Origin: Eledone cirrhosa
Lineage: Eukaryota
Length of the DNA: 64,000 nucleotides
Direction of reading: 5' to 3'
Assembly (NCBI GenBank): GCA_964016885.1
Contig: OZ024741.1
Span: 383,656,001-383,720,000, forward strand
In this document: positions 6,197 through 62,257 of the stretch, one piece after another
Numbering within the stretch: the stretch's first letter is position 1
How the letters are laid out: every line of letters begins with the position of its first letter
Position numbers and translations under genes: made by a program
Notes under the pieces: generated by a model
Seen by the model: the letters and a program-made list of their open reading frames with translations, nothing else
Database searches by the model: none
Told to the model about the DNA's origin: nothing

Positions 6197-9100
6197 CTAC
6201 AGGTTTATATAGAGAGAATGCCCAACCACTCGGGCCATTCTTGCCACATTCACTCACCTTTCAGAAAATTTGCTTGGGTGCAGCACTTCTCTCTCCACTC
6301 TGATTCTTCTTCTAAAGTGATATTTGAAGAAGCGAACCATTTGTTCGCCGGTGAGAAAGGCGTCTGACCTCAGCCCTTTCAGCCTTGTCCACCATATAAC
6401 CTCTTTCATCATAGCCATTACACAGAGGAAAACCGCCTCCTCTTCGTTTTTGAAGGAAGGTGGGGATTTGATCGTAATAATGGACTCGGTGGTCAACTGG
6501 ATTTGTCCCACCCGTGACAGTAGTCGGTCTGCGTAGCTCCACAGGTCGGTAACGCCCGGGCAGTGTACGAATGCGTGCGCGACGGTTTCCTCGTCCCGCA
6601 TGCATCTCGGACAGATCTTTTTCGAGGGATCTCTGCCCGGGCGCTCATGTCTGTAGAGGTTGTCTCGAACGGGTAGAGCTGCTCGGTAGCACTGCCAAGC
6701 CAGGGACTTTGGGAAGTTGTCCATCGGTCCCGGGCAGAAGGTCCTACCGAACAGACTGGCCAGTTCGTCTTCTTCTATGTCTAGAGTTTCCCCGAGAGTG
6801 TCGTCGCACTTGCTGCGCACCAACCCTCTATAGAATGACAAGGTGGAGTCTCCACTGATTACCGGGTCCGTTTGCCAGAGGACTGTGAGCGCCTGAGCAC
6901 ATTCGATGTGCCAGTCGCCCATTTTCCTCGGTCTTTGCTTGACCCAAGACTGCAGCTCCGTCAGCGAGACGAGTTGCGGGAAGGCTCGCCTCACGAACGG
7001 GGCCCACACCGGTTGTTCGTTGAGGAATATGTGGAGCTGCCGCAGACTTAGCGTATGTTTGCGCATCGTCAGCCACGGCATTCCTAGCCCTCCGTTCGAA
7101 GGGTGTTGACAGCAGATGGACCTTCTCACCAAAGGAGCCCGCTTCTTCCAAAGGAATCGGAAGAGCGCGCGCCCTATTTTGGTGAGCGTATCACGTGGTC
7201 AAGGCACGACGGTCAAGCGGTAGTAGATGACGGACGCTATAAAAGTGTTCGCCACCTCCGCTCGACCTTTCAAGGATAGTTTGCACTCGGGCACTTCTGG
7301 GTGAGCGCAAACACCTTGGCTGTCACCTCGTTCCAGTTTTTCTTCACCTGGAGGTCCGGTCCAAACCACACCCGAGCAGCTTCACCGGTCCTTCCGACCA
7401 GCGTGCGACAACGCCGTCGGAACGCATCGGTTTGCCTCTCCACGTTCCAAGTTGCAAACCGACGGACATGTCCCGGTTCAGCTTCGCTCCTGTAAACCTT
7501 TCGTATTACTTCAGTAAGGTGTCGACCTCCACGATTTGCGAGGTGCTCGACACCACTCGCCGGCGTAGGCCGACGCAGCTTTTCGCAGTCCCGGTTCCAA
7601 CAGGATGCCCTGCAGCAGCTCCAACTTCCGCAGTAGTGGCTCGAGAGTCAGTACGTACAGAAGGGAGGAGAGAGGGCATCCCTGTCGGATAGATCCCGTA
7701 TTTGGAACGGCTCCGACAGGTAGCCATTCACCTTGACCCTTGAGCAGATGTTGCTGCTGTGCCTGGCAGCAATCCAGCCCCTGAATACGGGGACGAAGCC
7801 TGCCGTCATAGCACCGCATCCAGGTAACGATGGTCGACTCTATCGAACGCCTTAGACGGATCCAAATTGATCATTGCCCGACCGAAGCCGGGTTCACACC
7901 TTACCCTCTCTACGATGTATCGCATGAGGTGGAGGTTGTCGTGTATGGACAAGGTCGAGATTGCGCATGTCTGCGCTTCTGCCACCAGGTTCCCGACGAC
8001 AAGCGCCAACCTCTTTGCTAACACCTTGGCCAAAATCTCTAACTCTGTGTTTAGCATAGTTATGGGCCTGAAGTTATTTATGTCATCCCCCTTGTTCTTG
8101 TCCTTCCTGACCAGCGTGACTACGCCCTTGGTCACAGAACTGGGAATTCTCCGATTCTACTGCCAGTTGCAGTAGACCGCTTCGAGGCGATCGGAGAACA
8201 AGTCCGGCATTGCTACGTAGAATACATAGGGTAGACCGTCGAGACCTGGCGATTTGCGTTTGCCGCATTGGTTCAGTGCGTCCCCTATCTCAGCGGCCGA
8301 AATCGACCTTTCGCAGGACTTCGCCCGAGAGTCGCGGCAGACCGTCGAGGTATGGACCGAAATCCATCGCCCCTCCCGGTGCGCCGAACCGCCCGAACTG
8401 TCGTGCAAATTGCCGCTGAAAGGCCGCGCACATCTACTCCGATTCAAGTATCACGCGTCCGTCTTGGTCCTTCAAAATCCGAATCGTTTATTTGTTGACA
8501 CTTTTCGCCTTCGTCACTCGGGCCCAGCTAATAGCTTTGGCTCCCTCGTTTCCTAGAGCAGGTGTTTTGGACCTGACAACGCAGGCTTCGTGTTTTGCGC
8601 CGAAGAACTGGTCTAAGGCCGTTCTCGTCGCTAGCAAGCTAGCTACGCTGCCACTTCTAAGCGCCTCTTCTATTTTATCTACTAGTTTCTTGTTAGTGTT
8701 AATCCTATCTAACGCTAGTTCTTTACCAAAAGCTATCGACTCTAATCTAATTTCTCTCTTGAGAAAGTACCACCACCTGTTGGTGACAATGGCCCCCGTC
8801 AACTGTTGCTTAACTAAAGTACTAATCCGTCTACTGTAGGCTTTGCGTGTCGGTAACGACAAGTTCAGTTTCCAGTATCCGGGTCCCTGCCTATGGTTTC
8901 TATCAAGGTTGGCTATGCAGATCACTAATTTGTGATCCGAATAGGTAACCATGAACATGCGTCGACAGCTTAACATATCCCTATCCCTATCTCTAATTAG
9001 GAACCTATCTAAGTACGATCTAGATGTCCCGCTGCGGTTCGTCCACGTCCACAGTCCACAGTGGCACAGTCGGGAAATCTAGTCGGTATCTATCGGCCAG

Positions 9101-9620
9101 TTGAAATTTGCCGATTAACTGTTTGAGGGTGTTACACCCCTCTCTATGGGGACATGCCCCCACATAATCCCAACGTGCATCTAGGAATCCATTCCAGTCC
9201 CCCACTGAAAGCAAGTAGCGAGACGTTCCCAGAAAAGTCTCCAGACGTTTGAAGAACTCTGGCCGCGATGTCCCGGATGGGGCATACACGACCACCAGTC
9301 TGAAAGCTCCACCTTCACCACTGCTGACGTCTAGGACCACTAGTTGACACTCCGGGTCCAGATGAACCGTCTGTGTTACGAGGTCCAGGTGTTTCCGCAG
9401 CAAAACGGCAACCCCGCCCCCACCACCCGGCTGACAGAGAGATGCGTAGATCTCAAAGTAGTCGAAGATGGGGGCCAGCTGCCGGTCGTTGTGGGTCCTG
9501 GACTCGCAAACGACTACCAGCTCCATAATGTGCGACCTAAGGTCGTTTAAGAGTTTGCCCTGTTTCCAGGGTAACCCCAGGCCGCGCACATTTACACATC
9601 CGACTCTTATATTCGCTATG
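6197..9620 (-). pseudogene. Copy A ORF2: APE endonuclease + reverse transcriptase + C-terminal CCHC, multiple frameshifts and stops
   Basis: VGDWN and SDH (EN); NFRPITMLN, KAFDRVDH, RQGCPLS (RT); CPRC..ETVAHAFVHC. Confidence 0.92.
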
Positions 9621-9661
9621 TCGTTGAGGAAGAGTTAGAAAAGAAAAGGAAAAGAATTCAC

Positions 9662-11502
9662 TTACCTTTTCGCTTCCTGGGGACCAGGCTGTACAATCTC
9701 CATGGGGATGTTGGAGGGGTTTTTGGTAGGGTGGTGGTTTCTGGCGGGGTGGGGACGGAGATGTTTGGTGGGGAGTGGATGTCTGGTAGGGTGGGGCTGT
9801 CTGGGGTGAGGGTGGGGAAACATTTTAAAAGGACGCGGTTATAGGGTTTCACGCAGGGATTACCCACGTCCTTAGGAAAGTTTTCTTTTAAAGATTTATA
9901 GGTGTCCGTAGGGACCCTAATCATCTTTAAATTAGGTATTTCCAGACAGTACGAAAAAGTTTTCCCTTCGGTTTTCGCCGAAGGGTCATTGGAAATGACC
10001 TCCATTAAAGTTTTATTGTCAGTCTTTACGTATGTATAATGTTTTTGTTGTGTTGTATTGGGGTTTTTTTCCGTTGTTCTTGTGTGAGTTTTCGTTTTGT
10101 TGTAGGTGTTTGTGTTTGGAGTGTTGTCGTTTTGTTTTCAGGAGGGGAGATTTTTGTTTGTGACGTTTGTAGTGTTTGTGTTGGTGGTTGTATGTTTGTC
10201 GTGAAGTTTGTTGGCTTTTTGTTCGTGTGGTGTCTTTTTTTTCTTTCTTTTCGAACGGAGAGGTTCTCCATCATCGTCACTTGGTCATGATGAGGGGGTC
10301 TCATCTGTTGTGACGTCTGTGTTATTGGAGAGAGGTACGTTTTGTGGAGTTGTTGTGTTTGTGGGTGTTTTACAGTGGTTTTAGGTGGAGTGGGTTGGGT
10401 GGGACTGTGTTTGGGGTTTTGTTTGGATGTACTTGTTTTTGTGTGTTGTTGTTGTTGTGGTGGTGGTGGTGGTGGTGGTGGCGGCAGTTGTGTTGCTGTC
10501 TTATGTGTTGACAGTAGTGCCTTTTTTTAAAACAGTTAGCTGAGGACAGGAAGCCCTCAGGTGACCACTGCTTAAACAGTGGTAACATGAAGGCCGCCTA
10601 CCCTCAACAGAAATGTTTATGTAGGAATTCCCATCCAGAGGCACACGTTGTTGTAGTCTAGCTATTCATTCTGGTCTCATTTGGACCAGAACTTCTAAGC
10701 TTGTACCGTTAAATATGCTCCTGGTGGACTTTCCTACCGAAAATACTGTCTTCATCAAAATTGATGAAACCAGCTAATATCCACCGGATGTTTACATTTG
10801 GTGTGATATATGTTACTCTTATTTTTGGGGTCCTGTATGTGGGGGAAAATGTGTAGAGGCGGGGGGGGGGGTACAAATTGGCGACAGAATATCTTTTGGT
10901 CGTCAATTGGTCTTTCATTAGTACTGATATACTTCCAAATAGTTTTCCTTTCTGTATAAAGGTAATGTCTTTCATGGAATTCCTTAGAACCAGCTCAATT
11001 TCATTTTGTGTTAATTGAACTGGTTTGCTGGTGGAGTTTGAGATTGTCCTAAAAATTATAGTTTATAGGACAGTTTCTCTACGCAACTCTTGAGGAGAAG
11101 TGATCTAAAAGCACCACTCTCCCCAAAAGTTACATATTGCTTGACATCTCTTAATAATTCTCTAGAATTAGAGATGTCAATATATGTGTAGCGTTCTGCA
11201 TTTTGGACAGTTTGTGCAAATGAAGTTGTTCCTTCTTCTTTGCTTGTAGAGTTGTTCGTGTTGGTGTTGTTGTCATCATTGTTGCTGTTGTTGTTCTTGT
11301 TGTCATTGTTGTTGGTGTTGTTCTGGTTGGTGTTGGTATTATTGTTCTGGTTTAACTTTGTGTTTACCTGTTTTTCAAACACAGCGACGTTCTCAACGTC
11401 TTTCAATAAGGTGAGCGGGGATGGCTGCGAGCATTGTACTCTTATTTCCTCTCCACCACCTTTCTTAGTGCGTGTGGCGTTCATTAGCGAAGCGGCGTCC
11501 AT
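9662..11502 (-). pseudogene. Copy A ORF1: Asn-rich N-terminus, gag-like zinc knuckle, fragmented
   Basis: MKDITFIQK matches copy B; EGRRPSCYHCLSSGHLRASCPQ is readable at ~10540-10605. Confidence 0.85.
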
Positions 11503-12039: not shown

Positions 12040-15000
12040 CTATAGTCTGATGTAGAGTGAAGGCCCATTCACACAGGCCATTCTCGCCACTTTCACCCAT
12101 CTTTCATAGAAACGGCTGGGGTGCAGCACCTCTCTCTCCATCCTGATCCTTCTTCCGAAATGATATCGGAAGAAACGAACCAGTTGTTGGCCAGAGAGAA
12201 AGGTGCCTGACCTCAGTCCTTTCAGACGCGTCCACCATACAACCTCTTTCGCCATGGCTATTACGCACAGAAACACCGCCTCTGCTTCATCTTTGAAGGG
12301 GGGAGGCGGCTTGATCATTACAATAGACTCGGTGGTCAACCGGATCGGTCCCACCCTTGACAGCAGTTGTTCGACATAGCCCCACAGATCGGCTACGCCC
12401 GAGCAGTGTACCAATGCGTGTGCAACGGTTTCCTCGTCGCACACGCATCTGGGACAGATCTTTTTGGCGGGGTCCCTACCCGGGCGCCCGTGTCTGTAGA
12501 GCCTTTCTCGAACGGGTAAAGCCCCTCGGTAGCACTGCCAGGCCAGGGACTTCTGGAAGTTGTCCATAGGTCCCGGGCTGAATGTCCTACCGAACAGGCT
12601 GGCCAGTTCGTCCTCCTCCATGTCTAGGGCTTCTCCGAGGGCGTCGTCGCACCTGCTGCGTACCAGCCCTCTATAGAATGTTGCGGTGGAGTCTCCACTG
12701 ATAACCGGATCCGCCTGCCAGAGGGCGGTGAGCGCCTGGGCACACTCAGTGTGCCAGGCGCCCAGTTTTCTCGGTTTTGCTTGACCCAGGATTGCAGCTC
12801 GGTGAGTGAGACGAGTCTGGGAAAGGTTCGTCTCACAAACGAGGCCCACACCGGTTGTCCGGTGAGGAATACGTAGAGGTGCCGTAGCCTTAATGCGTGT
12901 TTACGCATCATTAGCCACGGCATCCCCAGCCCTCCTTTCGAAGGGTGTTGACAGCAGATGGATCTCCTCACCATAGGAGCCCGCCTCTTCCAAAGGAATT
13001 GGAAGAGCGCGCGCTCCATCTTGGTGAGGGTTTCCCTTGGGCAGGGCACTACGGTCAGGCGGTAGTAGATGACGGACGCTATGTAGGTGTTCGCCACCTC
13101 CGCCCGACCTTTCAGGGATAGTTTGCAACTGGCCCACTTCTGGGTCAGTGCAAACACCCTGTTCGTAACCTCCGCCCAGTTTTTCTCCACCTGGAGATCC
13201 GGTCCGAACCAGACCCCGAGCAACTTCACCGGGCCCTCCGTCCAGCGTCCGACGACGCCATCGGAGGGCATCGGTCTGCCCCTCCACGTGCCGAGTTGCA
13301 AACCGATCGATTTGTCCCGGTTCAGCTTAGCCCCTGTGAACTTTTCGTACTCCTCCAGTAAGGTGCCGACCGCCTCGATTTCGGAGGCCGTCGACACCAT
13401 TACTGTCACGTCATCGGCGTAGGCCGACACCGCTTTCCGCAATCCCGGTTCCAAAGGGATGCCCTGCAACAACTCCAACTTCCGCAGTAGTGGCTCGAGA
13501 GTCAGCACATACAGAAGGGAGGAGAGAGGGCACCCTTGTCGGATGGACCGCGCGATTTTGAACGGCTCCGAGAGGTAGCCGTTCACCTTGACCCTAGAGC
13601 AGATGCGGCTGCTGTGCATAGCAGTGATCCAGCCCCTGAAAACGGGTCCGAAGCCTGCGGCCGCTAGCACCGCATCCAGGTAACCATGGTCGACCCTATC
13701 GAACGCCTTAGATTGATCCAAGTTGATCAGAGCCCCACCAAAGCCGAGTTCGTTCCCATCCCTCTCTATGATGTATCGCATGAGGTGGAGGTTGTCATGG
13801 ATGGACCTGGACGGGATAGCGCATGTCTGCGCATCTCCCACCAGGTTGCCCACGACAAGCGCCTACCTCTTTGCTAGCACCTTGGCCAAAATCTGTAACT
13901 CTGTATTTAGCAGTGTTATGGGCCTGAAGTTACTTATTTCGTCCCCCTTGTTCTCGTCCTTCCTCACTAGCGTGACTACGCCCTTTGTCACAGTACAGGG
14001 AATTCTCCCGTTCTGTTGCCAGTTGCAGTAGACCGCCTCGAGGAGATCGGGGAACAAGTCCGGCATAGCTAGATATAATTCGTAAGGAAGACCATCGAGA
14101 CCCGGGGATTTGCGTTTGCCGCATTGGCTCAGCACGTCCTCTATCTCAGCGGCCGAAATCGGCTCCTCGCAGGACTTCGCCTCCCTGTCCGAGAGGCGCG
14201 GCAGGCCGTCGAGGTATGGACCGAAGTCCACGTTCCCAACCGGCTCCCCGCCCCTCCCGAACAGTCGGGCAAAGTGCCTTTGAAAGGCCTCACACATCTG
14301 CTTAGGCTCAAGAATCGCCCGTCCATCCAGGTCTCGCAAAGACCGGATGGTGGATTTAGTTCCACTGTTGGCCTCTGTCACGCGGGCCCAGCTAACAGCT
14401 TTGGTCCCCTCGTTCCCTAGAGCACGTATTTTACTTCGGACAACGCGCCTTCGTGCTTCGCGTCGAAAAACTGGCTCAAAGTCGTTCTCGACGCTAGCAC
14501 TCTGGCCACGTCGCCGCTTCTAATTGCCTCTTCTACTCTATCTATTAGCTCCCTTTCCTTCCTATTCCTACCCGCAACTAGAACCTTTCTAAATTCTATC
14601 GAGACTACTCTAATCTCTCTCTTTAGAGATACCCACCACCTGCTGTTGACGATCGCTCCAGTCAACCGTTCCTTAACTGACGTACTAATCCGATTCCTGT
14701 AGGCTCTACTTGCCGGCAAGGACAAGTTGAGCTTCCAGTAACCGGGGCCCTGTCTATGAGTTCTGTCAAGGTTGACCATGCAGGTCACTAATTTGTGGTC
14801 TGAATAGCCAACCATGCGCATTTTTGGACAACTTAAAAAGTCCTTATCCTTAATTCTAACTAAGAACCTATCTAGGTACGACCTAGATGATCCGCTACGA
14901 TTTGCCCAAGTCCAGGTTGGCGCAGTCGGAAAATCTAGTCGATATCTATCGGCCAGGTCAAATCGACCGATTAACCCTTTGAGGCTATTACACCCCTCTC

Positions 15001-15475
15001 TATCGGGGCAGGCCCCTACGTAGTCCCAGCGTGCATCTAGGATACCATTCCAGTCCCCCACTAATAGCAAGGAGCGGGACGTCCCTAGAAAAGTCTCCAG
15101 ACGATGGAAGAAGTCCGGCCGCATTGACTCGAAAGGGCCGTAGGCGGCTACCAACCTAAACGCTCCGCCTTTACTACTGCCAAGGTCCAGAACCACTAGT
15201 CGACCCTCCGGGTCCAAATGTACCATCTGTGTTGCGAGACCCAGATGTTTTTGCAGCAGAACGACAACTCCACCCCCACCTCCGGGCTGATAGAGAGATG
15301 CGTGCATCTCAAAGTCATCAAAGGTGGGGGCCAGCTGTCGCACGTTGCTGATCCGGGCCTCGCAAATAACCATCACATCTATACGTTGTGACCTGAGGTC
15401 ATTTAAAAGCATTGCTTGCTTCCAAGTTGAGCCCAGGCCACGCGCATTTATACAGCCTACTCTTAGCATAGCCAT
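12040..15475 (-). pseudogene. Copy B ORF2 (EN-RT-CCHC); frameshifts near 14430 and 12780, stop near 13863
   Basis: INARGL, GDWN, YLDRFL, SDH; KSPGLDG, FRPITLLN, KAFDRV, QGCPLS, YADD, KLLGV; CPRC..HALVHC. Confidence 0.95.
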
Positions 15476-15499
15476 GTTGGTGGTGAAGAGAAAAGGCAC

Positions 15500-17294
15500 T
15501 TACCTCTCTGCGTCCCGGGTATCGGGCTGCACAATTTCCATTAGGGTGGGGGATGGGTTGTTGGGTGGGGTGGTGGTTTGTGGAAGTGTGGGGGCATCAG
15601 TGTGTTGTGTGGTTGGGGAGCTTGGAGTTGTGTGGGTGTTTGGGGAGGGGGTGGGATAGTTTTTTAGGAGGACGCGGTTAATGGGCCCGACGCAGGGGGG
15701 ACCCACGTCCTCTTTAAAATTGTTTTTTAAAGTTTTATAGGTGTCCTGTGGGGCCTTAATCATTTTGAGGTGGGGGAAATCCCCTACCTGGGTGAAGTTA
15801 GGCCCTTGTGTTTTTATTAGATTGTTGTTGTATACAATGTTTAACAGTTTTTTGTTTCTTGTATTTATGTATGTGTATGCATGTTTTTGTTTTTTGTGTG
15901 GTGTTTTTTGTTTGCTGTTGTTGTGAGCTCTTTTGTGTTGGTGTCAGTGTTATGTTTTGGGGAGGGTTTTTTTTCATTTGTGTGTCTGAGGTGTGTTTTC
16001 TTTTTTTTCTTTTGATTGTGTGGAAGTGCTCCTCCTCGTCTGACGACGAACTAGGGTCATCTTCCGCGTTGGAGGGGAGGGGTATATTTTCGGGTTGTGT
16101 TTGCGGTACGGGTGTTTTGGAAATTGTTTTTGTTTTTTGAGTGGAGGGGATGGGTTGGACATTGTTTTGTTTTGGTTTGAGCTGTGGTGGTTGTTTTTGT
16201 AGTGGTTGTTGTGGTGATTGTGTTGGTTGTGCAGTTGTTGGTGGTGTAGGCAGGATTGGGGTTTTCTTATTAAGTTGGGGACAGACAGCCCTCAGGTGAC
16301 CTCTGGTTCCGCAGAGGTAACACGAGGGCCGTCTACCCTCAACGGTAATGTTGATGAAGGTTAGATCATCCAGTATGACGCGTTCAGGGATCTGGGCGAT
16401 CCTTTCGGGCCTCATTTGAACTACAAGTTCGAGGCTCGTTCCACTGAACGGGTCACCCGATGCCTTTCCCATGGACACCAGCATGTCATCCTCCAGGTCC
16501 AGAAAACCTGTCAAAACCCACCATATGTCCATAATCGGCAGGATGGTGTGGATTTTTATTTTTTGTGTTCTTCTACCCATGTACGTAGGGTAGAAGGTGT
16601 ATGCGGTGGATGTGATTGGTTTGATGGACAGTTTCACTGCTGTGTCCCTGTCCTTCATGAGAATGGATAGACTCCCGTAGAGTCTATCCTTCTGAATGAA
16701 GGTGATGTCCTTCATGACGTCTTTTAAAACCAGCTCTATCTCGCTCTGTGATGGTTGAGCTGGTTTTTTACTTTTGTTCGAGATTGTCCTAAACATGACC
16801 GTGTTTAGGAGTCTCTGGCTTTTTAGTTCCGGGGGGGAATGGATTGTGAATGAACCATTTTCCCCGTACACTATATATTTTTTCGCATCCGCCAGTAGCT
16901 CCTTCGCTTTTGTTATATCTACTGGCAGATAGTCGAGGGTTTTCCTTGTCGTCTCGGCGAAGGAGAAATTTTGTTTGTTTGTGTTGTTGTTGTCGTTGGT
17001 GGTGTTGTTGTTATCATTGTTGTTGTTGTCACCGTTATTGGTCTTGTTGTTGTTGTTATTGTTATTGTTATTGGTGTTGTTTTCGTCCGTCGCATTGTTG
17101 TTGTTGTTGCTGTTGCTGCTGGTTCTTTGGGTTGTTGCTATGGCAACGTCAAGTTGTCGGTTAACAGGTGGAGAGAATTCTTCCTCTGGCTGACCTTTCT
17201 TCTTGACCTCTGCTACTGTGACAGTGGCAGGGGGAAGCTGTAAGTTCATCTTCCCCTTTCCTCCTTCGAATTTTGGTGAAGAAGCTTCGGCCAT
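15500..17294 (-). pseudogene. Copy B ORF1 nucleic-acid-binding protein (probably one frameshift near 15800-15900)
   Basis: 498-aa ORF with poly-Asn, CYLCGTRGHLRAVC knuckle, P/Q/T-rich linker and basic NLS-like patch; 15500-15763 matches copy A ORF 9658-10005. Confidence 0.9.
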
Positions 17295-19787: not shown

Positions 19788-19832
19788 CAAGAAAGAAGAG
19801 TGACATGGTTTGCTATACAATAAGGGCTTTAT

Positions 19833-19951
19833 TCACATTGCTGACAATTGTTTCTCTGAACTGGTAGGTCTAGAGATCGCTTCCTGTCTGTTTTTGCGTC
19901 AATCGATCACCAATACTTTGTTATGACCAGTCAATTCATCAGAGCATGCGA
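19833..19951 (-). ncRNA. Type I hammerhead ribozyme with enlarged stem II
   Basis: UGCU-CUGAUGA-[UGACUGGU...ACCAGUUCA, ~80 nt]-GAAAC-AAUU-GUC-AGCA; followed by AATAAA and (TA)n. Confidence 0.75.
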
Positions 19952-20486
19952 GAATGAAGGAAATACACAGGCATGGCTTCTATATATAGTAGTGGCATTA
20001 AATCAGAACAATAATAACAATACTAACAATACTAACAATACTAGAATAAATTAGCTAGACCGTAAATAGTTAAAATAATCACATCAATCGAAGTAAGACA
20101 TAGAGTATACTGATGACTTTAGCATGTAAAACGAGCTGATACGAAGCAGATGTATGAAATTGACATGTAAAAGCTGTCATGGGGTGTATTATATATAGTG
20201 TAGAGATAACCTGGGGCTTCAAACAATGGACCATTTACTTTACTGTAGGTTTGCTGACCGCAAGAATTATTTATTATCTGACAGATAAAATATTTTCATT
20301 GTAGTGAGGATGGTAATTTTTATGTGGTGTAAAGTGGATTCATTATTTAAGTGGTCTACATTAGATGAAGTTCGAATCATGGGGTTGTTTAGCTTTCACA
20401 GCATCAATAAGAAATCATGCTTCTTACATCATGATTAATTATACGGAATGACCAGTTCCGTCAAGTGGTAAACCACTAAACTTCAA

Positions 20487-20562
<76 letters not shown>

Positions 20563-22207: not shown

Positions 22208-24380
22208 TAATGTTTATACGGAGCAGAAAAATGAGAAACAACCGTATGAACGTGCATGCGCAGAAATGGTCACTTCACCCAAGCGATGCAAAGCCACGGG
22301 CGAAAGGTGTAAGGGAGTTAACTGCGGTGTAACAGTTGATTAGAATATTAGAATATTGCTGTTATTCAATGCGGAGCTTTGTAGTTATGCAAGAGGTGTT
22401 TCCAGACGTGTGGACAACGTGAGAAGATTTCATATCTTGAATTTAGGCAATCACTATTGTGTAATCTCCTTAGAATATTTATCCTTTCTTCAATACACAG
22501 ACCACAAGACGGATTACCCCTTGCGTATGGCTTGGACTTAGTGATAGCTTTCCATTGAATGGCGTAGTCTATACCTTAGTCTTTGAGGGACCATACGTGG
22601 TTAGCGAGCTTCGTGAATGATCGTTTGTCCGGGTACCTAAAGTTCGACTGGTGGTTCAGGAAGCGTTCCTTAAACCGACCCTCCGCCATACCCACATAGG
22701 ATTTGACCTCCTGCGGTTTATTTGTTCGATTGGAAGTGACCACAGCTTCATAAACTACAGCGGGTGTGTTGCATTGATGTTGAAGGGGACAAGCTTCAGG
22801 CTTTCGGCAAGAGCATCCTGGTGGGGTGGTACTCTTAGGGCTGTTGGTGATATGGGCCTTCATATTTGTAGCGGAGGAGTACCCTAGTTTTACTCTGTGT
22901 CTGTTAAAGATGGAGCGGTGTTTACAACCTATGGGAAAGTGTCTATCTAAGAGGGCTAAACAATTTTGTTTTCCTACATTAGTTTTAACGTTGAGTGAGA
23001 AGGGAAGAGAGAACCAGATAGTTTGTCTATTGGTACAATTTCTTTTCTTATGGCTGTTGGTGTTAGCAGGGTAGTAAATAATTGGTTGCGAGAAGCCGCT
23101 GTTAGCTAACGCCGTGTTGTAGTAGATAGCTTTTTAGGAGAGGTTAGAGATTGTAGTACTAATATTATTTACGAAGTTTCTAAAAACAGTAGGAGAGTGG
23201 CATGAGTCCTTGTGTATGTAATTAAGTTTTTCGTTTACTTTATGGAAGGGTCTGAAGGTATGTGTGCGAAGGTCTTAATTACTGTCTAAGTAATCTACGC
23301 TAGAGAGGTTGGTAGCTATCGTTATCCTAAATCCTAAATCATAAAAAGTAAAAATTAAATATTTTCTAAACCGGTCGAGGTCGTGACGTTTATGACTCGA
23401 TGGGGTCAGACTATCGTCATGGTGTATTCCCGTGTGGAAGTCCGGGAATCTAACACGTAATATATCTAAAATAAATAAGCCAACCAAGTCGCATACGTCA
23501 GCACTGTCGAACGATCCCATGGAGACGTCGAATAGCTCTGAAGTGGTTGACTTCTTTGTCCAGGCTACTCCGTTGTTGAAGAGGAGGGTTTTCTGGCAGT
23601 GTCTAAATGATGATCTCCCTGTCTAAAACATGGACGGTAGTATAAGTGGTAGCAAAGTCCAACGCTTTGTTTAACAGGGTCTCTGAGATTGATGGGTAAA
23701 ATTCTACAGTGTCGAATTGCGTGAACTTCGCTGTTTTGGAGTTGAAGGAGTTAAACCACTGAATGACGGAGTCGTTGTTCTCCCACTGGGACAGGTTGGA
23801 CTTTGTCCTAATGGTCTTATCTATGTTCCTAAGTATAGCCTTACTGAGTAGTCCCATTTCTGTGCGTGCTGGGTTTAGTAGTCTACACGTGGGATTAGAA
23901 GCAAAGTCTACCTTGTGATCCTTCAGGGTGAGAAATGTATCACGCTTAGCTAAGCATTGTAGTTACTTATCTACCTTAAGGGCGGCAGCATGGTCTTTGG
24001 CTTCTGTATTGATGTCGTGGTAGGCCGTAGGGTTAGCCTTCTTATATTTAGAAGTTATGGCGTTACGTGCCAAGTGGCTGTAAGTAGTGTTGTCCACTTC
24101 GTAAATGTTATTGTTTTTGTCAGAAAGAACGAAAGTGTTATTGGAAGACCTAAATTTTTTAATATCATTTCTAAGTTTAGTTAGAAAGGTGCTAGAGTGT
24201 TTGCGAAAGGAAATGTTAGCGACTAAGTCAAGAAGGTCCGCTTCGAAAGGAGTGAGTTCAGTTACATTAGAAGGGTAGGCTCTCGATTTCAGGTTGAAGG
24301 TGTTATTGGTGCCTGTAAGTTTACCGTCAAAAGCCAAACTTCCACGTGATGAAAAGAATTTGCTGACCGGAGCTGGAGAC

Positions 24381-24440
<60 letters not shown>

Positions 24441-25233
24441 CAAGGATTACAGTTACGAAAGGTGTTAGGTTCACGCTTGAGAGTGGGGGAGGTACATACA
24501 TAATATTCAACATTTCTCTAAGACTAAAAGGATCGTAATAACACTGACCGTCTAACACACACGCGCACAGACACGCGTACCCACGAACACATGCACGCAC
24601 ACGCAGACATACACAAAAACACGCACGTGCTCACACACATATAGACACACGGATGCGTGTATTAAATTAAATTTCTTCCTTAAAGCTAAAAATAGACATT
24701 CCTCTTCAATTGTGTGCAATAACAGCATGACAGCTGAAGTCGAGATTTGAAAGACCTATTTTAATCCAAATTGTATTTGAATTCTAAACAGAGCATGATG
24801 AAACAAAATCTGTTAAAATTCCATCTCCATCACCGTTAGTCATTCGTATATTTCTCAAATCTGAAAATTTGAGTAATAATATCTCTACTGATGTTAAACA
24901 TTTCCTACTGATAACCTCGACTTTCCCGGGGAGTTTCACTTAAACACGTTTTGAATGAAACAACCTCTATTCTTCAACATCTGTCATTCATAAATAAATA
25001 ATCCCCAGCTGAGATTTAACATATGGGCCTTTCACGCAAAGTTTCAACTATTCCTTGTACAAATATTATGTACATGAGACAATTTAAGCAATATTTAAAC
25101 CGTTTCTTGTTTAGATTTTCAAATGGGATTCTCTTATACCTCGTAGGATCTGGTGCGTTTATTTGTATATAACTGCAGTAGATATATAAATGAATACACA
25201 TATACTTCTAAATTTGCAAACAGAGACACATTA

Positions 25234-30832: not shown

Positions 30833-31020
30833 GTTAAATATAGTAAGGTGTATTATTGGTTGTGTCAAACGGTCCAATAAATTTTTGTTACCAATATTAA
30901 GTTCTCCACGCTTTTGTATATCTCCAATTCCATTTATGGGAACTGCTAGGTGATGTATAACGGAGTATTAGTATCAAAATAAAGACCCGAAGGCATGGTA
31001 TACATTTCCAATCATTTTAA

Positions 31021-31094
31021 TCACGACACATGTTTCAATAAGAGATAGATCGATCGTGTAGCCATGATCGATTATCACTGAACTCGTCAGGTGA
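31021..31094 (-). ncRNA. Type I hammerhead ribozyme within inverted repeat 30971-31286
   Basis: UCAC-CUGACGA-[AUCGAUC..GAUCGAU]-GAAAC-AUGU-GUC-GUGA. Confidence 0.7.
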
Positions 31095-31282
31095 AAATGA
31101 ATTGTCTTCAAATCCTTGATATGAGGGAGTAAATTAACGGTGTTCACTCACACAGTTTAGTCCCTCCCGTTAATTTTCTCCCTCATATCAAGGATTTGAA
31201 GACAATTCATTCTATCCGTTATTGAAATATGTATCGTGATTAAAATGATGGAAATTTATACCATGCCTTCGGATCTTTATTT

Positions 31283-39996: not shown

Positions 39997-42480
39997 ATAG
40001 TTCTTTCGTCACACACTCTGTGACCTCTTCAGTGATTGGGATTCCTTTCTTTGTTTTTTGTGACTCTCCTTTGTTCTGTCCTACGCCATTTTGTTTCTGT
40101 GTGTGTGTTGTGTGCTCAGTTTGCGCATGCGCCACATCCGGGTGTCTGTGTGTGTTTATGTTCATTTATTTATTTGTTTATTTACATGTTACTGGTTGGT
40201 TGTTTGTTGTATGTGTGTGTGTGTTTTCATTTTGTCCTTAATTGTAAGTTGTGATGTTGCTGTTCCACTCATATTTTCTATTTAATTTTGGTTGTAATTC
40301 TTTTATGCTTATTGCCTCTGTGATTTGTCTAAACATTGCGTCTTTTCTGTATGTAGATTCTATTTTTATTTCTATGTTCTCTAATTTACCCTTGTGTTCT
40401 ATTTTAGCATGTTGGTAGAGTAAAGATGATTCTTTACTATCTTGAAGGTCTCGCCAGTGTTCATTTATCCGTTCCCCTACACTACGAGCTGTCTCACCTA
40501 TGTACACTATATTTTTGTCTCTACATTGTCCTTCAGATGTATGTGATAGCACGGAGGACCTCCTCAGCAGAATCGGCGAGAGTAACCGATCTAGGTACCT
40601 AAAAAACTGCATAATAGGTAGTATGGATGTTGTGTCCCTGTATCCATCTATTGACGTGGATTTTGCTGTGGAGAAATGCGTAGAAATGATCAGTGAAAGC
40701 AATGTTGAGTTCCGTGGGATTGATACCAGTGAGCTGGGACTCCTACATAAACTTACCTATAGTAATAATTACCTAGACACATATGCCCTTAGCAACCTGT
40801 GCCCTACAAGACCAGCAAGAGGCAGACCACCTACCATTACCTCAATGGCCAAGAAAACCCACACAGATAGATGGAACGGGTGGACCAGAGCCATACGGAC
40901 ACCTGAAAACCACGATGAACTGAAGAAAATGATTGCACATGCGGTAGGGGCCAGCATAAAACTAACCCTTAAGGAACATATGTTCAAATTTAATGGAAAA
41001 ACATATGCCCAAGAGGAAGGAGCAGCCATTGGTGTTAACATTGCAGGCGACATAGCTAACTTATTCATGGTATGGTGGGACAGTAGACTTAAACTTAAAC
41101 TTAAAGAACAATTAGAAGACCCCCTTAACCCTGATAATGTACTCCCGCTACGTTGATGATATAAACATCGTAGTTAAGACACCCCCACTAGAGAACAGTC
41201 AGGAACTAGAGAAAAACACAATGGAAAGCATCCAGCAAATAGCTAACTCCATCCACCAGAGCATTAGAGTTACTATAGACTACCCAAGTAAACACCCCAA
41301 CCATCGATTACCTGTACTAGACACAGAGCTCTGGTTAGATACCATTAATAACAAAAAACAAATCCTCCATTCCCATTATGCCAAACCCATGACTTCCAAA
41401 CATCTGATCCACCGAAACTCGGCCGTTTCGGACCATACCAAAATCAACATACTGATTGCGGATTTGGTACGGGTGATGAGAAACGTGTCCCGCATGTGCA
41501 ACCCCGAAGAACTAGAGAGACACATACAACACTTAATCCACCGTATGCAGTTCTCTGGCTACAATCAGAGAGATAAAATCAGAGTGTATAGAGGAGCCAG
41601 AACCAAATGGGAAAAAATGGGAAATAATGACATAAATGGGACCTGCCTCTTGTATAGGAGCAAATTTTGGAATAGAATAGAAAGAACTAGGAACAAGGCT
41701 AATAGAATAAACTCATGGTATGATAGCAATAAATACCAGAGTGAATTAGCTTACAAATTTAGAAGGGCCCTAGATAAACATAAACTCAATATTAAGATAG
41801 TAGAAAGACCAGGTACCTCCGTAATAACACTTATTAGCAAGACATACCCTTTTCAAAGACCCTCATGTATACATAAGAAATGTATAACCTGTAAAATAAG
41901 CCCCCATATTAACTGTAAAACTAGAAATGTAGTGTATAGCATAAGATGTACTGAAGGACAATGTAGAGACAAAAATATAGTGTACATAGGTGAGACAGCT
42001 CGTAGTGTAGGGGAACGGATAAATGAACACTGGCGAGACCTTCAAGATAGTAAAGAATCATCTGTACTCTACCAACATGCTAAAATAGAACACAAGGGTA
42101 AATTAGAGAACATAGAAATAAAAATAGAATCTACACACAGAAAAGACGCAATGTTTAGATAAATCACAGAGGCAATAAACATAAAAGAATTACAACCAAA
42201 ATTAAATAGAAAATATGAGTGGAACAGCAACATCACAACTTACAATTAAGGACAAAATGAAAACACACATAGAACAAACAACCAACCAGTCACATGTAAA
42301 TAAACAAATAAATAAATGAACATAAACACACACAGACACCTGGATGTGGCGCATGCGCACACAACACACACACATAAACAAAATGGCGTAGGACAGAACA
42401 AAGGAGAGGCACAAAAAAACAAAGAAAGGAATCCCCAGTCACTGAAGAGGTCACAGAGTGTGTGCCGAAAGAACTATGAC
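39994..42480 (+). mobile_element. Penelope-like element family B with an inverted copy of its 3' end (39994-40536 = reverse complement of 41951-42480)
   Basis: GSMDVVSLYPSI, GAAIG..ANLFMVWWD, RYVDD, LPVLD (RT); VVYSIRC..YIGETARSVGERINEH (GIY-YIG); frameshift near 41140 and a stop near 42160. Confidence 0.93.
42438..42480 (+). ncRNA. Minimal hammerhead at the very end of PLE-B (second copy 39994-40036, minus)
   Basis: GUCA-CUGAAGA-GG(U)CACA-GAGUG-UGUGCC-GAAAG-AA-CUA-UGAC. Confidence 0.75.
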
Positions 42481-48773: not shown

Positions 48774-49650
48774 TAGCGGAGTAGCCCGTCATTTCCGGGC
48801 AATAATCACAATAGTATGCCTTTATTTCAGTTCATTTTTTTATTCCATGTCAGACCATGTCTCCCCTAAATGATTGTCCCCTTGCTAAGGGCGGATTTAT
48901 TTATTAATTGGGTCAGTTTATAATGTTTGTATAAACTATGTCTGTTGTTTTTCCATCTGGTGCATAGATGTAAAGATGTTTCTGACTACTAGCCCTTGAA
49001 CATCCAACGTATATCTGACCATGGGTGAAGCTGGGCTCTTCAACATGCAACCGGCAACCGGAAATGTTTGCCCTTCTAATTTGTTGATGGTCATGGCAAA
49101 ACTCACTGGATATTGAAGAAGTTTGAATTGAAATGGGACATCGGTGGGGATAAGAAGAATTCTTGGCTCAAGCACATCCTCTCCCCTACCACATTCTGTT
49201 GAAATGGTAACTTGAATCACCTGTGGATACATATTTTTCACAGCCAATCGAGTGCTATTGCATAGATTTGGTGAGTCCAAATTCCTCAATAACATGATGG
49301 GTGCTCCTTCTTTAAAGTGAAGGACATGTGAAGGCACTCCTGATGGTTCTAAAGAGTCGAGGAACTCTGTCAGGTAAATGACAGCTTCGGACTGTTCCAC
49401 CGCTGTGCCAACAGATCGATAGAGCTTCGAAACCTTTGGAATTCTTTTTAACAGCTCTTGATTTATCAATTTCTCAGTTTCATTTTTCGGGGCCAATATA
49501 GACCTTTCACTGAGTCACTTATGACTTGAGAACTAATATTCAAGATTAGGTAACATTTTTTCTAAGAGATGGAATAATGATTACACCATCATGCCTATGG
49601 AATTTATATCAATAACTCCTTTTCTATCTACAGGAAGTAGCATCCATGTA
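48773..49650 (-). mobile_element. Helitron 3' fragment with Pif1-family helicase remnant
   Basis: EFLDSLEPSGVPSH.L..K.GAPIMLLRNL..LCN.TRL..PRI..QYPV.FAMTINK.GQT; 3' hairpin GCCCG..CGGGC then CTAG into T. 5' end not found. Confidence 0.92.
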
Positions 49651-50012: not shown

Positions 50013-50100
50013 TCATATCTGAAGAAGTATCGATTAAGAGTCGGGATCCGATCACCTGGTCAAATTCGTGTTGATCGATATAGAAAAAATGTTAATATGA
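50013..50100 (+). ncRNA. Type I hammerhead with enlarged stem II
   Basis: UCAUAU-CUGAAGA-[UAUCGAUUAA..UUGAUCGAUA]-GAAAA-AAUG-UUA-AUAUGA, then AATAAA. Confidence 0.75.
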
Positions 50101-50211
50101 AATAAAGTTTTACGAAAACCTGCAATTTTTATTGTCACTCACTCGCTCACTCTCCCTCTCTCTTTCTTTCTCTCTCCCCCATCTCTCTCGCTCTCACTCT
50201 CTCTATATATA

Positions 50212-50244
<33 letters not shown>

Positions 50245-50464
50245 CACCCAGTTGGTGAGTAATGCTAACCGATCCTAGAGTCAAGGTGATTGCATCAGAT
50301 TGCATTTTTTCTTTTTTCTTATGAGAGGCTGAATGAGTTGGGGTACAGAACCCAACGAAACTTGAGAACCTATTTATGTCACTGTTGTAATTATTTATAC
50401 TAAACTCTTCCTATGAACAGAGTGCTCTTACCCTTGGATATTTCCAATTAACTTTGACTACAGT

Positions 50465-50512
<48 letters not shown>

Positions 50513-51526
50513 TGTTATACTTGGGGAGGGTCATATTTGTGTAATAATATTGCCAGAATTAATAACAGAACACACTCACTGTTTGGTTGGTTTTCGCTTA
50601 TATATATATATAAGGGATAACAAAATATCGAATATCGTTACAGGTAATCCAGTTAGAGGTTGTCAATACTTCTTATTATGGATAGTTTTAGCGTACGGCG
50701 TTGTTTGACTCAACAAGAGGTTTACGTAGATGACAAGTTTATGATTTAACTTGTATTCCTATGGAAGTTTATCTCGTAGTAATAAAATTGAAAAAGTGAA
50801 GAATAACATGGTCAACAGTACAAACAAGGGGATTTATTTACAGTCTAACAATTGTTTATCTGATTAAGTTGTCTAAAAATTGCTGAACACTAGAAGCAGT
50901 GCCACTCAATTTCAAATACGATGCTAGCTCAATCAGATCATCAGAAACTGTTACAAAAAATATATATAACTGGCAAATTTACAAATTCAAATTACATCAT
51001 CAATAATAATATTAATAATAAAGATAGGGAGAGAGAAAAAGAAAGAAAGGGAGATAGATAAAGGAAAGAAAGAAAGAAAAAGAGAAATAGAAAGAAGAAG
51101 AAAAAGGAGAAATGAATACAGAGAAAGATATAGAGAGAAGAAAATATATGGATAAATGATAATAGAAAGAGGAGAGATATGCATGAGGAGAAATAACGTA
51201 GGAAAGAAAGAGCAATAGAGGGAAAATAATGATATCAACAATAAATGAATAAACGTTAATACATCTATCTTTATTATTAATATTGGCAGTATCGGTAGAG
51301 GGTCGGACGCCATGCTTTCCAGCATAGTTACGTCCCTTTACGATCTGAGTTCAAATCCCGCCGAGGTTGACTTTGCCTTTCATCCTTACGGGGTCGATAA
51401 AATAAAGTACCAGTAATGCACTGGATAATTGCTGGCCTTGTGCCTAAAGTAGAAACAATTATTAATATTATTATTGATGATGTAATTTGAATTTGTAAAT
51501 TTGCCGGTTATATATATCTTTTTCTA

Positions 51527-51638
51527 ACAGTTTCTGATGATCTGATTGGGCTAACATCGTATTTGAAATTGAGTGGCATTGTTTCTAGTGTTCAGCAATT
51601 TTTAGACAACTTAATCAGAGAAACAATTGTTAAACTGT
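51527..51638 (+). ncRNA. Type I hammerhead with ~80-nt stem II domain (inverted, decayed copy at 50840-50951)
   Basis: ACAGUUU-CUGAUGA-UCUGAUUGG...UUAAUCAGA-GAAAC-AAUU-GUU-AAACUGU. Confidence 0.85.
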
Positions 51639-51934
51639 AAATAAATCCCCTTTTTTGTACTGTTGACCATGTTATTCTTCACTTTTTCAATTTTATATAT
51701 GAAGTATTTCCGTAGAAAAGGTAAAGGAAAAGAGAGTAGGCTAGAGAGTTTTTTAGTTATGTAATAAACAACATAAGATAATTATTTCAATGAAATAATT
51801 ATCTTATGTTGTTTATAACTATATATATATATATATCGATGAAATACCAATGAAAGTTGGAAGATCACTGAAGGACTAATTTTATTCATATGTAACCCAT
51901 GTGCAACCACGCAGCACTCCATTCTTCTCATATT

Positions 51935-51975
<41 letters not shown>

Positions 51976-52060
51976 AGAATGGAGTGCTGCGTGGTTGCAC
52001 ATGGGTTACATATGAATAAAATTAGTCCTTCATCAGTGATCTTCCAACTGTCATTGGTAT

Positions 52061-52139
<79 letters not shown>

Positions 52140-53355
52140 TCCATATGTGGTACTCAAAGCTGAAGTAGAATTCTAATATTCATTTTAAGGCTAAATAGTG
52201 AGTCCTACTACTCTGGAGTTTCGCTTGTTTATCACATGGTAATCCGACAAGAACTAACGTTTTAATGACATCCACAGTATAAACAAGGAAGACTTGACAT
52301 GGGAGAAGGGGTAATTAAGATAGTATGGACAGGGCGTGGGAGGAGAGAGATGAGTGAAAGACGAAGGCGATATAGCGAGTTAGGGGAATTTTAACTGGTC
52401 AGTGTGATGCAGGTGTTGAATGTGGAGATGGGTGTATATTTTATAGACGGCTGTATGGTTTAGTGAAAAGATTGCTGGGAATGGGAAGATAAAGTGGGGG
52501 ATGGAATATACATGTATACAATTACACATTTACACAAATATACATGCATACACTCAAACATATTTACGGAGACATACATCTAAATCCACATATACAGGTG
52601 CTATATGAAAATAAATAATATATATACCTACAAACACAACTATACTTATAAAACATATTCAAGGAAATAGATAAAAATATATTTAGAAACTTATAAAAAA
52701 CTATAAGAGATTTTCAAGATATATATATATATATATATATATATAGATAGATATATATATATATATCACTGACGAAGGACTATTTTTATCATATTTAACC
52801 CATGTGCAACCACGCAGTATTCTTCTTTCTTCTCATGTTTTTTATATATATTTACCTCGGCTGCGTTTGTCTGTTTCTCTCTTACTGCTTCCTCGTTCTC
52901 TCTGTTGTTCTCACCTTCTTTCGCCCCCTCTGTCAGTTACACTTTCTCTCGACTGACCTCTTCCTCGCACTTCCACTCACTCACTCTTTGTTTCTCCCCT
53001 TCTCACTTCCTCTCGTTTGGCTAGTAGTGGGTTCTCTTCTCACATCTCACTCACGTCGGACTGTCTGTATCTTGATCGCTCATGAAATCCACCCAGTTTA
53101 TGCTGACCGGATAACCATGTTGCTTGTTTATTCCCATCTTTGCGTTGCTTTCATCCTTCTATGTTGTTTACTTGTCTCACTCGCTTTACGCGATTTACTT
53201 GTCCCAATAGCTTTTTTTAGTTATGCTCGCACCACCCTGAGGTATATGATTTTTAATGCGATGAAATATCAATGATGGTTGGCAAATCACTGACGAAGGA
53301 CTATTTTTATCATATGTAACCCATGTGCAACCACGCAGTATTCTTCTTTCTTCTC

Positions 53356-53420
<65 letters not shown>

Positions 53421-53511
53421 GCTCGCGTATTTGAAGAGAACATCGGTGCAGAATCAGGCCCCGATCTTTATGATCGAACCCAAAGCTCCTCGGTATAGAA
53501 ACAATTGTCAT

Positions 53512-53595
<84 letters not shown>

Positions 53596-53603
53596 TATAT
53601 AAT

Positions 53604-53635
<32 letters not shown>

Positions 53636-53651
53636 ATTATATATATATATA

Positions 53652-53720
<69 letters not shown>

Positions 53721-53765
53721 TAAAGAAAACGAAAAATCAGTGATGCATCTGTAATTAATTTATTG

Positions 53766-53856
53766 CGTGTTACAATTGTTTCGCCGGCAGGTAGCTCGAG
53801 ACATGGTCCTGGTATGGATCTGGCTGATTCTACTTCTGCAGGTTCTTTCAGACACG
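53766..53856 (-). ncRNA. Hammerhead motif with enlarged stem II (relative at 61478-61568, minus)
   Basis: CGUGU-CUGAAAGA-[CCUGCAG..CUGCCGG]C-GAAAC-AAUU-GUA-ACACG; each copy has one core deviation. Confidence 0.65.
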
Positions 53857-61437: not shown

Positions 61438-62257
61438 AAACGAAAAATCACTGATACATCTGAACTCAATTTATTGTGTGTTACAATTGTTTCGCCGCCG
61501 GCAGACAGCTCGAGACACAATCATTGTGTGGATCTGTCTGATTCTGGATCTGCAGGTTCGTCGGACACTTCTAATAATTTCGGATCAAATTTTCTTATAT
61601 AAAAATTCTTATATATATATATATAAGAATATCAATAAGATAGTTGCTGATTTTACATAAATCGTTTATTCATAATAATTATTTTAACGGTTCTCCCATG
61701 CAATCCAATATGTAATTTATTCTGCTTATGAGAACGGTATCATGAGATCAATTTCGATTTCGTGATATGCCGCAGACAGAAAAACACGTGCTTCTGTTCG
61801 CGCGCCTGGCAGACATAGGCAACAATATATATCTATCTCTCTCTCTCTATATATATATATATATGGGGGGGGTTGTAGTCAGTAAAGAAAAAGCCCTGAA
61901 TATGTATTATAGAGGTATGGACGAGGTGAAATCACCTTGCTTCAGGAAACTCTGAGTACCTAGGAAGGTACATGTCAGTTTTCCATGCTTTTTGTAGATT
62001 ATATTATAGATATATACTTGAATAAAATATAAACAGGATCCTAGATACATAAAAGTAGGATTTTGGTATCTTCTGCCCTCAGACAAAAGGTTGGGAACGA
62101 AATATGAAATATGAAATAATCTCTTGCATATTCGAAATTCACTATGGAATAGTTAAAAGGTTTTCATTTGAATACAGTCGAAATGAGTATTCTGCATTCA
62201 AATATCATAGCATCGAAGGAGTTGCACCCGTTCTCAAATGCCACAGACAAACACACG

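What the first reader, a model, noticed from the sequence alone, without database searches (positions are those of the whole stretch)
50013..53856. Several independent hammerhead families with greatly enlarged stem II domains
Seen: roughly 50-80 nt between CUGANGA and GAAA, closed by a good basal helix, at 50013-50100, 51527-51638 (and 50840-50951), 53766-53856 (and 61478-61568), 53425-53515, 19833-19951 and 31021-31094. The inserts are unrelated to one another, while stem III stays minimal, often the AAUU palindrome. Known: PLE minimal HHRs usually have a very short stem II. Inference: the inserts may provide tertiary contacts, RT-binding sites or regulation.
Basis: partly seen in the sequence, partly recalled or inferred. 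Interest (0 to 1): 0.7.

Follow-up and report, generated by a model that had tools for sequence, protein, structure and literature searches.

The report
Giant-armed hammerheads of Penelope transposons
These motifs are hammerhead (self-cutting RNA) sequences at the ends of abundant Penelope-type jumping genes; their oversized arm falls into two large related groups plus one outlier rather than six unrelated inserts, keeps its fold while its letters change, and likely serves as a grip for the element's own enzyme rather than an aid to cutting.

Summary
The motifs are real. All eight listed sites are copies of six high-copy repeats with type I hammerhead architecture, a 47-81 nt stem II, a 2-bp stem III and A(A/U)UAAA 3-9 nt after the predicted cut. 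Four families (B, C, E, F) lie downstream of Hydra-type Penelope-like RT/GIY-YIG frames. 'Unrelated inserts' is wrong: A, C, D form one lineage (4,055 exact pattern hits), B and E a second (most listed hits of a 10,751-hit pattern), F stands alone. Across subfamilies the inserts keep their helices through compensatory changes (96.5% and 91.2% of cells paired; 27-44% when slid), and both lineages carry a 2x1 internal loop, A-N/G capped by U-A. Only 3 of 8 window copies keep a consensus core and stem III. A subfamily with a doubly altered core (CCGUCGA) has at least 485 copies and keeps the arm; only 5 copies end at the cut site. Best reading: a selected RNA domain, likely a handle for the element's protein, while cleavage is weak or optional. 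Cleavage, binding and expression are untested. The scan noted long-armed Hydra hammerheads before, in this and other genomes. New variant of a known kind.

The parts
50013..50106 (+). Family A hammerhead (lineage 1): stem I 50013-50018/50095-50100, core 50019-50025, 57-nt stem II 50026-50082, GAAA-stem III-cut 50083-50094, AATAAA 50101-50106; this copy has stem III changes and a damaged 3' half of the conserved loop
51527..51645 (+). Family B hammerhead (lineage 2): core 51534-51540, 79-nt stem II 51541-51619, 3' core 51620-51631, AATAAA 51640-51645; consensus core
50833..50951 (-). Second family B copy, head-to-head inverted partner of 51527; G12 replaced by U, predicted inactive
53759..53856 (-). 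Family C hammerhead (lineage 1): 8-nt core 53851-53844, 61-nt stem II 53843-53783, 3' core 53782-53771, AATAAA 53764-53759
61471..61568 (-). Lineage 1 copy of a sister subfamily of C: core CCGACGA (U4C), 64-nt stem II with a 3-nt duplication
53425..53515 (+). Family D hammerhead (lineage 1), old decayed copy: core 53431-53437 with C3U, 60-nt stem II, 3' core 53498-53509, poly(A) hexamer lost
19828..19951 (-). Family E hammerhead (lineage 2): core 19942-19936, 81-nt stem II 19935-19855, 3' core 19854-19843, AATAAA 19833-19828; inside a 5'-truncated element that runs from about 20450-20540 to 19780 and ends in (TA)n
31016..31094 (-). Family F hammerhead (third lineage): core 31090-31084, 47-nt stem II, stem III loop AUGU, ATTAAA 31021-31016; an inverted partial copy lies at about 31130-31280

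Best explanation
The motifs are type I hammerheads at the 3' end (pLTR) of Hydra-type Penelope-like retrotransposons, and their enlarged stem II is a structurally conserved RNA domain that likely acts as a binding handle for the element's own RT-endonuclease protein. Shown: repeat nature, link to RT/GIY-YIG frames (B, C, E, F), two lineages plus F, compensatory changes, a shared 2x1 A-N/G loop capped by U-A, a poly(A) hexamer right after stem I, copies that run 43 or more nt past the cut site, and amplification of a subfamily with a damaged core. Inferred: the protein docks on the arm of the uncut transcript and starts reverse transcription about 45-65 nt downstream of the ribozyme; self-cleavage would be slow, need a dimer through the palindromic stem III and protein help, would remove the poly(A) signal when it happens, and is optional for transposition.
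For: Covariation: lineage 1 S-type rows 96.5% of 456 cells paired, 6 pairs with two-sided change, slid controls 27-43%; lineage 2 91.2% of 306 cells, 7 pairs, slid 30-44%. Between S-type and A/D subfamilies the basal helix is 28-29% identical (flanks 24-31%) yet paired, while the internal-loop strands are 91% and 100% identical. In lineage 2, with loop size left free, 23 of 27 rows give A-N/G under a U-A pair. CCGUCGA core in 19 of 95 sampled lineage-1 copies and 485 exact 29-mer hits, attached to Hydra-type EN/RT frames; changes at A6 give low activity (PMC3088659 passages on A6C and an insertion after A6). Only 5 B/E/G/H-type copies end at the cut site in (TA)n, against 10,751 long-arm motifs that continue to the hexamer. 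In the anole PLE the hammerhead cuts only with protein present, core mutants do not affect insertion and RT starts internally on uncut RNA (PMC11167929 section 3).
Against: No binding, cleavage or expression data; the protein role is by analogy with a Poseidon-clade element. Hydra-type elements with 11-14 nt stem II also spread in this genome, so the arm is not required in general. F lacks the shared loop. The CCGUCGA subfamily is young (93% mean pairwise identity), so keeping the arm may be time lag. Lineage-1 loop conservation is partly built into the pattern (but). Covarying cells are inherited along a tree: 14/500 and 33/500 shuffles reach the number of covarying pairs. The A/D basal register was set by hand. 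No RT frame was found for A or D.
Confidence: 0.5

Rival explanations
1. The arm is a catalytic accessory: its internal loop docks on the extended stem I (whose internal loop holds AAUAAA) or on a partner ribozyme, replacing the usual loop II contact and allowing cleavage at cellular Mg2+.
For: The conserved loop sits at a fixed distance from the core in lineage 1 (10 nt between GAGCU and GAAA in 94 of 95 copies, pattern allowed 8-12). Stem I can extend past the hexamer in A. Known type I hammerheads need stem I-stem II contacts (PMC3088659 passages).
Against: The loop lies 12 or more nt from the core (14-23 nt on the 3' side in lineage 2), far beyond the 4-bp loop II position, and its distance varies in lineage 2. 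The arm is kept where the core carries U4C+A6U or an extra base. The AUUAAA variant (F; 3 of 27 rows) fits a poly(A) signal better than a docking strand. No covarying stem I-stem II pairing was found.
Confidence: 0.2
2. Stem II is a tolerant site: hairpins grew there by template-switch duplication and are only required to stay folded so as not to disturb the core; the arm has no function of its own.
For: Stem II lengths form a ladder in this genome (11, 14, 18, 26, 30-35, 47, 53-62, 79-104 nt). The apical loop is hypervariable (26% identity). PLE insertions here often make fold-back structures. Within families the insert decays like its flanks (2.1% vs 2.6% non-CpG changes), as expected of dead copies.
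Against: Unpaired loop bases are nearly invariant between subfamilies whose paired neighbours are at random identity; the same 2x1 loop recurs in lineage 2 across RTs only 56-58% identical; asymmetric loops keep their position for many subfamilies, which folding alone does not demand.
Confidence: 0.2
3. The arm carries a host RNA-processing signal (3' splice acceptor, ADAR substrate, or modulator of the adjacent poly(A) site).
For: Lineage 2 has an invariant UAG on the 3' strand in 27 of 27 rows, with a pyrimidine run before it in B, E, G, H; PLE pLTRs can hold introns that overlap the hammerhead (PMC4209133). A U-rich stretch follows the hexamer.
Against: Lineage 1 has GAG at the equivalent place; J, K, M, N, O lack a pyrimidine tract. 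No A>G excess in inserts of genomic copies (24/2751 A>G vs 16/2465 T>C; flank 16/1738).
Confidence: 0.1

Closest known systems
Hammerheads of Hydra-clade Penelope-like elements (Craig et al. 2021, PMC8557442; section 11 and File S2 read)
   Same: Type I, 3' position, C-terminal GIY-YIG element with RWK, DKT and CxCX5C marks, (TA)n targets, short stem III, mismatch at the base of stem II.
   Different: The 26 Hydra rows of File S2 have at most about 26 nt between the two core halves; here 47-104 nt with several helices and conserved internal loops. Elements are longer (E about 3.6 kb, C about 5 kb, vs generally <3 kb).
Metazoan PLE min-HHRs (Cervera and de la Pena 2014, PMC4209133; parts 1-2 of 4 read)
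   Same: Palindromic 15.2-16.2 region predicted to need dimers, unpaired base at the foot of helix II, head-to-head pairs, thousands of truncated copies.
   Different: Helix II there is 7-8 bp with a conserved G10.1-C11.1; here a multi-helix arm and no conserved G-C at the base.
PLE-X1_sMoe hammerhead and Naiad 'HHR_half_core' cases (Craig 2021, File S2 and methods passage)
   Same: About 54 nt between the core halves in PLE-X1_sMoe; 35-50 nt spacing noted in eight Naiads, two from cephalopods.
   Different: Single families of other PLE clades, flagged as deviating, with no covariation analysis; the eight Naiad cases were not folded as hammerheads.
Anole Poseidon element PAc hammerhead (Frangieh et al. 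2024, PMC11167929; section 3 part 2 and passages read)
   Same: PLE pLTR hammerhead upstream of the ends of integrated copies; model for protein-assisted cutting and use of uncut RNA.
   Different: There the ORF starts in stem II; here the ATG in the core is followed by a stop (B, E) and the ORF starts some 400 nt downstream in tandem context.

Membership tests
Type I hammerhead ribozyme | Core CUGANGA ... GAAA ... NUH | tested here: met
   Family majorities A, B, D, E, F have it; C has one extra base; some subfamilies have U4C or U4C+A6U. 3 of 8 window copies fully consensus.
Type I hammerhead ribozyme | Three helices, stem I open, with covariation | tested here: met
   Stem I G-C/A-U swaps, stem II covariation, stem III 2 bp invariant.
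Type I hammerhead ribozyme | Self-cleavage at NUH | not testable with these tools
   Needs in vitro assay or RNA ends; active monomer fold is 0-5.8 kcal/mol above the MFE.
Type I hammerhead ribozyme | Loop II - stem I tertiary contact about 4 bp from the core | tested here: inconclusive
   No terminal loop at that distance; a substitute contact cannot be excluded.
PLE min-HHR (Cervera 2014) | Palindromic minimal stem III | tested here: met
   8-nt self-complementary stretch in A-E (-6.4 kcal/mol duplex); F 6 bp (-6.0).
PLE min-HHR (Cervera 2014) | Helix II of 7-8 bp with conserved G10.1-C11.1 | tested here: not met
   47-104 nt arm; basal pair types vary.
Hydra-clade PLE | RT followed by C-terminal GIY-YIG | tested here: met
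   B, C, E, F, S1, J, K; not found for A or D; F rests on one locus (L186).
Hydra-clade PLE | RWK motif, DKT motif, CxCX5C linker | tested here: met
   E and B all three; C has RWR, DKT and CxCX5C; F only the start of the linker, N-terminus not held.
Hydra-clade PLE | (TA)n insertion preference | tested here: met
   Copies end in (TA)n in the window and loci; not counted against a background.
Hydra-clade PLE | CCHH motif absent from the endonuclease; grouping with published Hydra proteins | not tested
   No published Hydra sequence was put in the tree.
Hydra-clade PLE | Generally short (<3 kb) | tested here: not met
   E about 3.6 kb (L180), C about 5 kb (L179), due to 0.85-2.7 kb 3' UTRs; a tendency, not a strict rule, in the paper.
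Non-LTR retrozyme | Short non-coding tandem repeats each with a hammerhead | tested here: not met
   Copies are dispersed, 5'-truncated or head-to-head and link to RT frames; A and D remain without a known frame.

The most novel reading that the evidence does not exclude
In this PLE radiation the hammerhead has been turned into a scaffold: a 50-100 nt arm with a shared 2x1 loop is the RNA element that the telomerase-like RT recognises, it arose once and diversified, and catalysis has become dispensable, so that tens of thousands of genomic 'ribozymes' are really protein-binding RNAs built on a ribozyme fold.
Probability: 0.25. Interest if true: 0.75.

Novelty: new variant of a known kind. Interest (0 to 1): 0.5.

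Why it matters
Why PLEs carry hammerheads is an open question. Here natural variation supplies the test set: many subfamilies with a conserved arm, one with a damaged core, and short-armed relatives in the same genome. If the arm is the protein handle it is the first defined cis-recognition element of a Hydra-type PLE and a model for how a telomerase-related RT finds its RNA. Practically, more than 12,000 such motifs in one genome (1,997 + 10,751 exact pattern hits) are missed by Rfam and by short-stem descriptors, so ribozyme censuses undercount them.

Tried and rejected
Rfam: nothing at gathering score in the window; on 9 short loci only sub-threshold miRNA/snoRNA hairpin matches, none to a hammerhead or known motif. 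RNA evidence: no RNA holder listed; the three coded runs are contigs of one sample and gave no information on ends or splicing. ADAR editing of the arm: no A>G excess. Insert as coding sequence: stop right after the core ATG in B and E; ORF begins far downstream. RNAalifold on the full lineage-1 alignment was weak (-0.47 kcal/mol) because MAFFT shifts the A/D basal strand by one column; on 17 lineage-2 rows it recovered only the 8 upper pairs; on 19 S-type rows it recovered the arm but not stems I and III. Searches used structure strings with my column errors and are superseded by 90 and 92. The RT tree does not settle one or several origins of the long arm (2 of 14 rows dropped for having under 200 aligned residues, midpoint root, three rows with unknown hammerhead). 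My early reading of the elements as Penelope/Poseidon was replaced by Hydra. Lunse et al. 2017 on short PLE hammerhead variants is not held; I saw only a review's passages on it (PMC6765202), so its text and supplements may hold long-arm examples I could not see. Literature searches for a prior description found none; the 'long helix II' of viral hammerheads is 6-8 bp (PMC13725137 passages).

Full report
Observation. All eight listed sites show a type I hammerhead layout with 47-81 nt between the two core halves. A descriptor with palindromic loop III finds 5 motifs in the window, 3 of them long, and none in 100 shuffles. Rfam misses all of them. Each of the six queries is a high-copy repeat in the 3.0-Gb own genome (19 to 2,195 first-look candidates), often in head-to-head pairs. 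I call them A (50019), B (51534, 50944), C (53851; sister copy at 61478-61568), D (53431), E (19942), F (31090). Family majorities from the 19-30 best copies have intact cores, except C with one extra base. Of the window copies only B+, E and F keep both core and stem III; the others carry G12U, C3U, U4C, the extra base or stem III changes.

Relatedness. The claim of unrelated inserts fails. A and D align at z=10.7, B and E at z=4.6, the other 13 of 15 pairs at z<=1.6. A, C and D share AG-AR-UC ... GA-G-CU; a pattern made of this and the 3' core has 4,055 exact hits, control 0, which split into about 12 subfamilies (95 copies sampled from the first 100 listed places). A pattern that does not ask for the internal motif (50-70 nt arm) has 1,997 hits; by eye 95 of the 100 listed belong to this lineage, about 80 of them with the 5' motif exact. 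A pattern for 71-100 nt arms has 10,751 hits, control 17; most listed rows are B/E-like, in at least ten subfamilies. F matches neither lineage.

Host elements. B, C, E and F lie 0.85-2.7 kb downstream of RT plus C-terminal GIY-YIG frames. The proteins carry RWK/RWR, DKT and CxCX5C, the marks of the Hydra clade (PMC8557442 section 11). An earlier scan note gave me the Hydra lead. On an RT/EN tree C and the CCGUCGA subfamily group at 100, the lineage-2 elements are set apart at 99, and the deeper nodes are unresolved at 54-65, so one origin or up to three remain possible. No frame was found for A or D, whose shared upstream sequence reaches about 300 nt in the loci held. The organism is likely an octopus (inference from genome size, repeat content and Hydra elements; not tested).

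The arm is conserved as a structure. On 19 S-type copies of lineage 1, 96.5% of cells pair, with 6 pairs changed on both sides; slid registers give 27-43%. On 12 subfamily majorities, after moving one gap by hand, 209 of 240 stem II cells pair against 63-94 when slid; between S-type and A/D rows the basal strands are 28-29% identical, like the flanks, while the internal-loop strands are 91% and 100% and the hexamer 100% identical. On 17 lineage-2 copies 91.2% pair, 7 pairs covary, slid 30-44%. In all 27 lineage-2 rows basal positions 2-5 pair in 100 of 108 cells, and with loop size free 23 of 27 rows give a 2x1 loop A-N/G under a U-A pair, the same loop as in lineage 1. Limits: cells are not independent events (14/500 and 33/500 shuffles reach the pair counts), rows were picked by me as subfamily representatives, and the likeness of the two loops is small enough to be convergent. 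Within families inserts decay at the rate of flanks: selection acted on source elements, not on genomic copies.

3' context. Every family majority has AAUAAA or AUUAAA 3-9 nt after the predicted cut, followed by a U-rich stretch, and copies share sequence for 43 nt or more beyond the cut (these sets were chosen with the 3' flank in the query). An unbiased look finds only 5 B/E/G/H-type copies that stop at the cut site in (TA)n. Integrated copies therefore come mostly from uncut RNA, as shown for the anole PLE (PMC11167929).

Catalysis looks weak or optional. Stem III is 2 bp with a self-complementary stretch (-6 kcal/mol duplex) and the active monomer is 0-5.8 kcal/mol above the MFE, the dimer-dependent design described for PLE min-HHRs (PMC4209133). 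A subfamily with CCGUCGA (U4C plus A6U) makes up 19 of 95 sampled lineage-1 copies and has 485 exact 29-mer hits; C has an added base after A6. Natural A6C and an insertion after A6 had low activity (PMC3088659 passages); A6U itself was not in the passages I read. Both subfamilies keep the full arm.

Mechanism. Shown: identity as PLE hammerheads, lineage structure, covariation, conserved loop, uncut template, spread of core-damaged copies. Inferred: the arm is a handle for the element's RT-endonuclease, placed just upstream of where reverse transcription starts, and the same binding may assist slow dimer cleavage that would strip the poly(A) signal. I give this 0.5, a catalytic accessory 0.2, a neutral tolerated hairpin 0.2, a host processing signal 0.1. 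Short-armed Hydra-type elements in the same genome show that the arm is not needed by all relatives.

Comparison with print. The 26 Hydra rows of Craig et al. File S2 have at most about 26 nt in this place; PLE-X1_sMoe has about 54 nt, and eight Naiads are marked as half cores 35-50 nt apart. Eight searches found no description of long, covarying arms in PLE hammerheads; Lunse et al. 2017 could not be read, and of the retrozyme preprint I read part 1 of 5. Earlier unreviewed notes of this scan report long-armed Hydra hammerheads in this and other genomes; they are not independent support. Verdict: real, a new variant of a known kind, interest 0.5.

Noticed in passing
window 22197(-), 22073(-), 54253(-)/54324(+), 39629(-), 37046(-), 45610(-), 4274(-), 40032(-)/42442(+), 60015(+), 20661(-): At least a dozen further hammerhead-like motifs with 11-31 nt stem II; 22197 follows a Hydra-type RT/EN at about 22370-24520, and the 18-nt pair flanks a PLE frame at 40446-42162.
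   Followed up: partly
L034, L195 (99-104 nt arm); L173 (91 nt); L037, L057 (53-58 nt arm, CCGCGG stem III): Other long-armed hammerhead families that match neither lineage; one lies 725 nt after a GIY-YIG end.
   Followed up: no
window 51838-52070, 52769, 53290: A repeat, once as a head-to-head pair, with a CUGANGA half core followed by AGGACU and no GAAA within 140 nt.
   Followed up: no
lineage-1 S-type rows, alignment A1 columns 26/82: A pyrimidine-pyrimidine mismatch two pairs above the stem II base in 9 of 9 S-type subfamily majorities; G-U in A and D.
   Followed up: partly
window 6254-10137 and 12040-17294 (-): Two broken LINE copies with AP-endonuclease and RT frames and a zinc-knuckle ORF1 (L1/Tx1-like by recalled motifs).
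   Followed up: no
window 48936-49514 (-): Helicase-like fragment (PIF1/Helitron-like by recalled motifs).
   Followed up: no
window about 51285-51460 and 4230-4160 (-): A tRNA-like short repeat, probably a SINE, inserted in the 3' UTR of the family B element.
   Followed up: no
L178:243-2852 (+): Gypsy-like protease-RT-RNase H-integrase frames, broken by stops, upstream of a family C copy.
   Followed up: no
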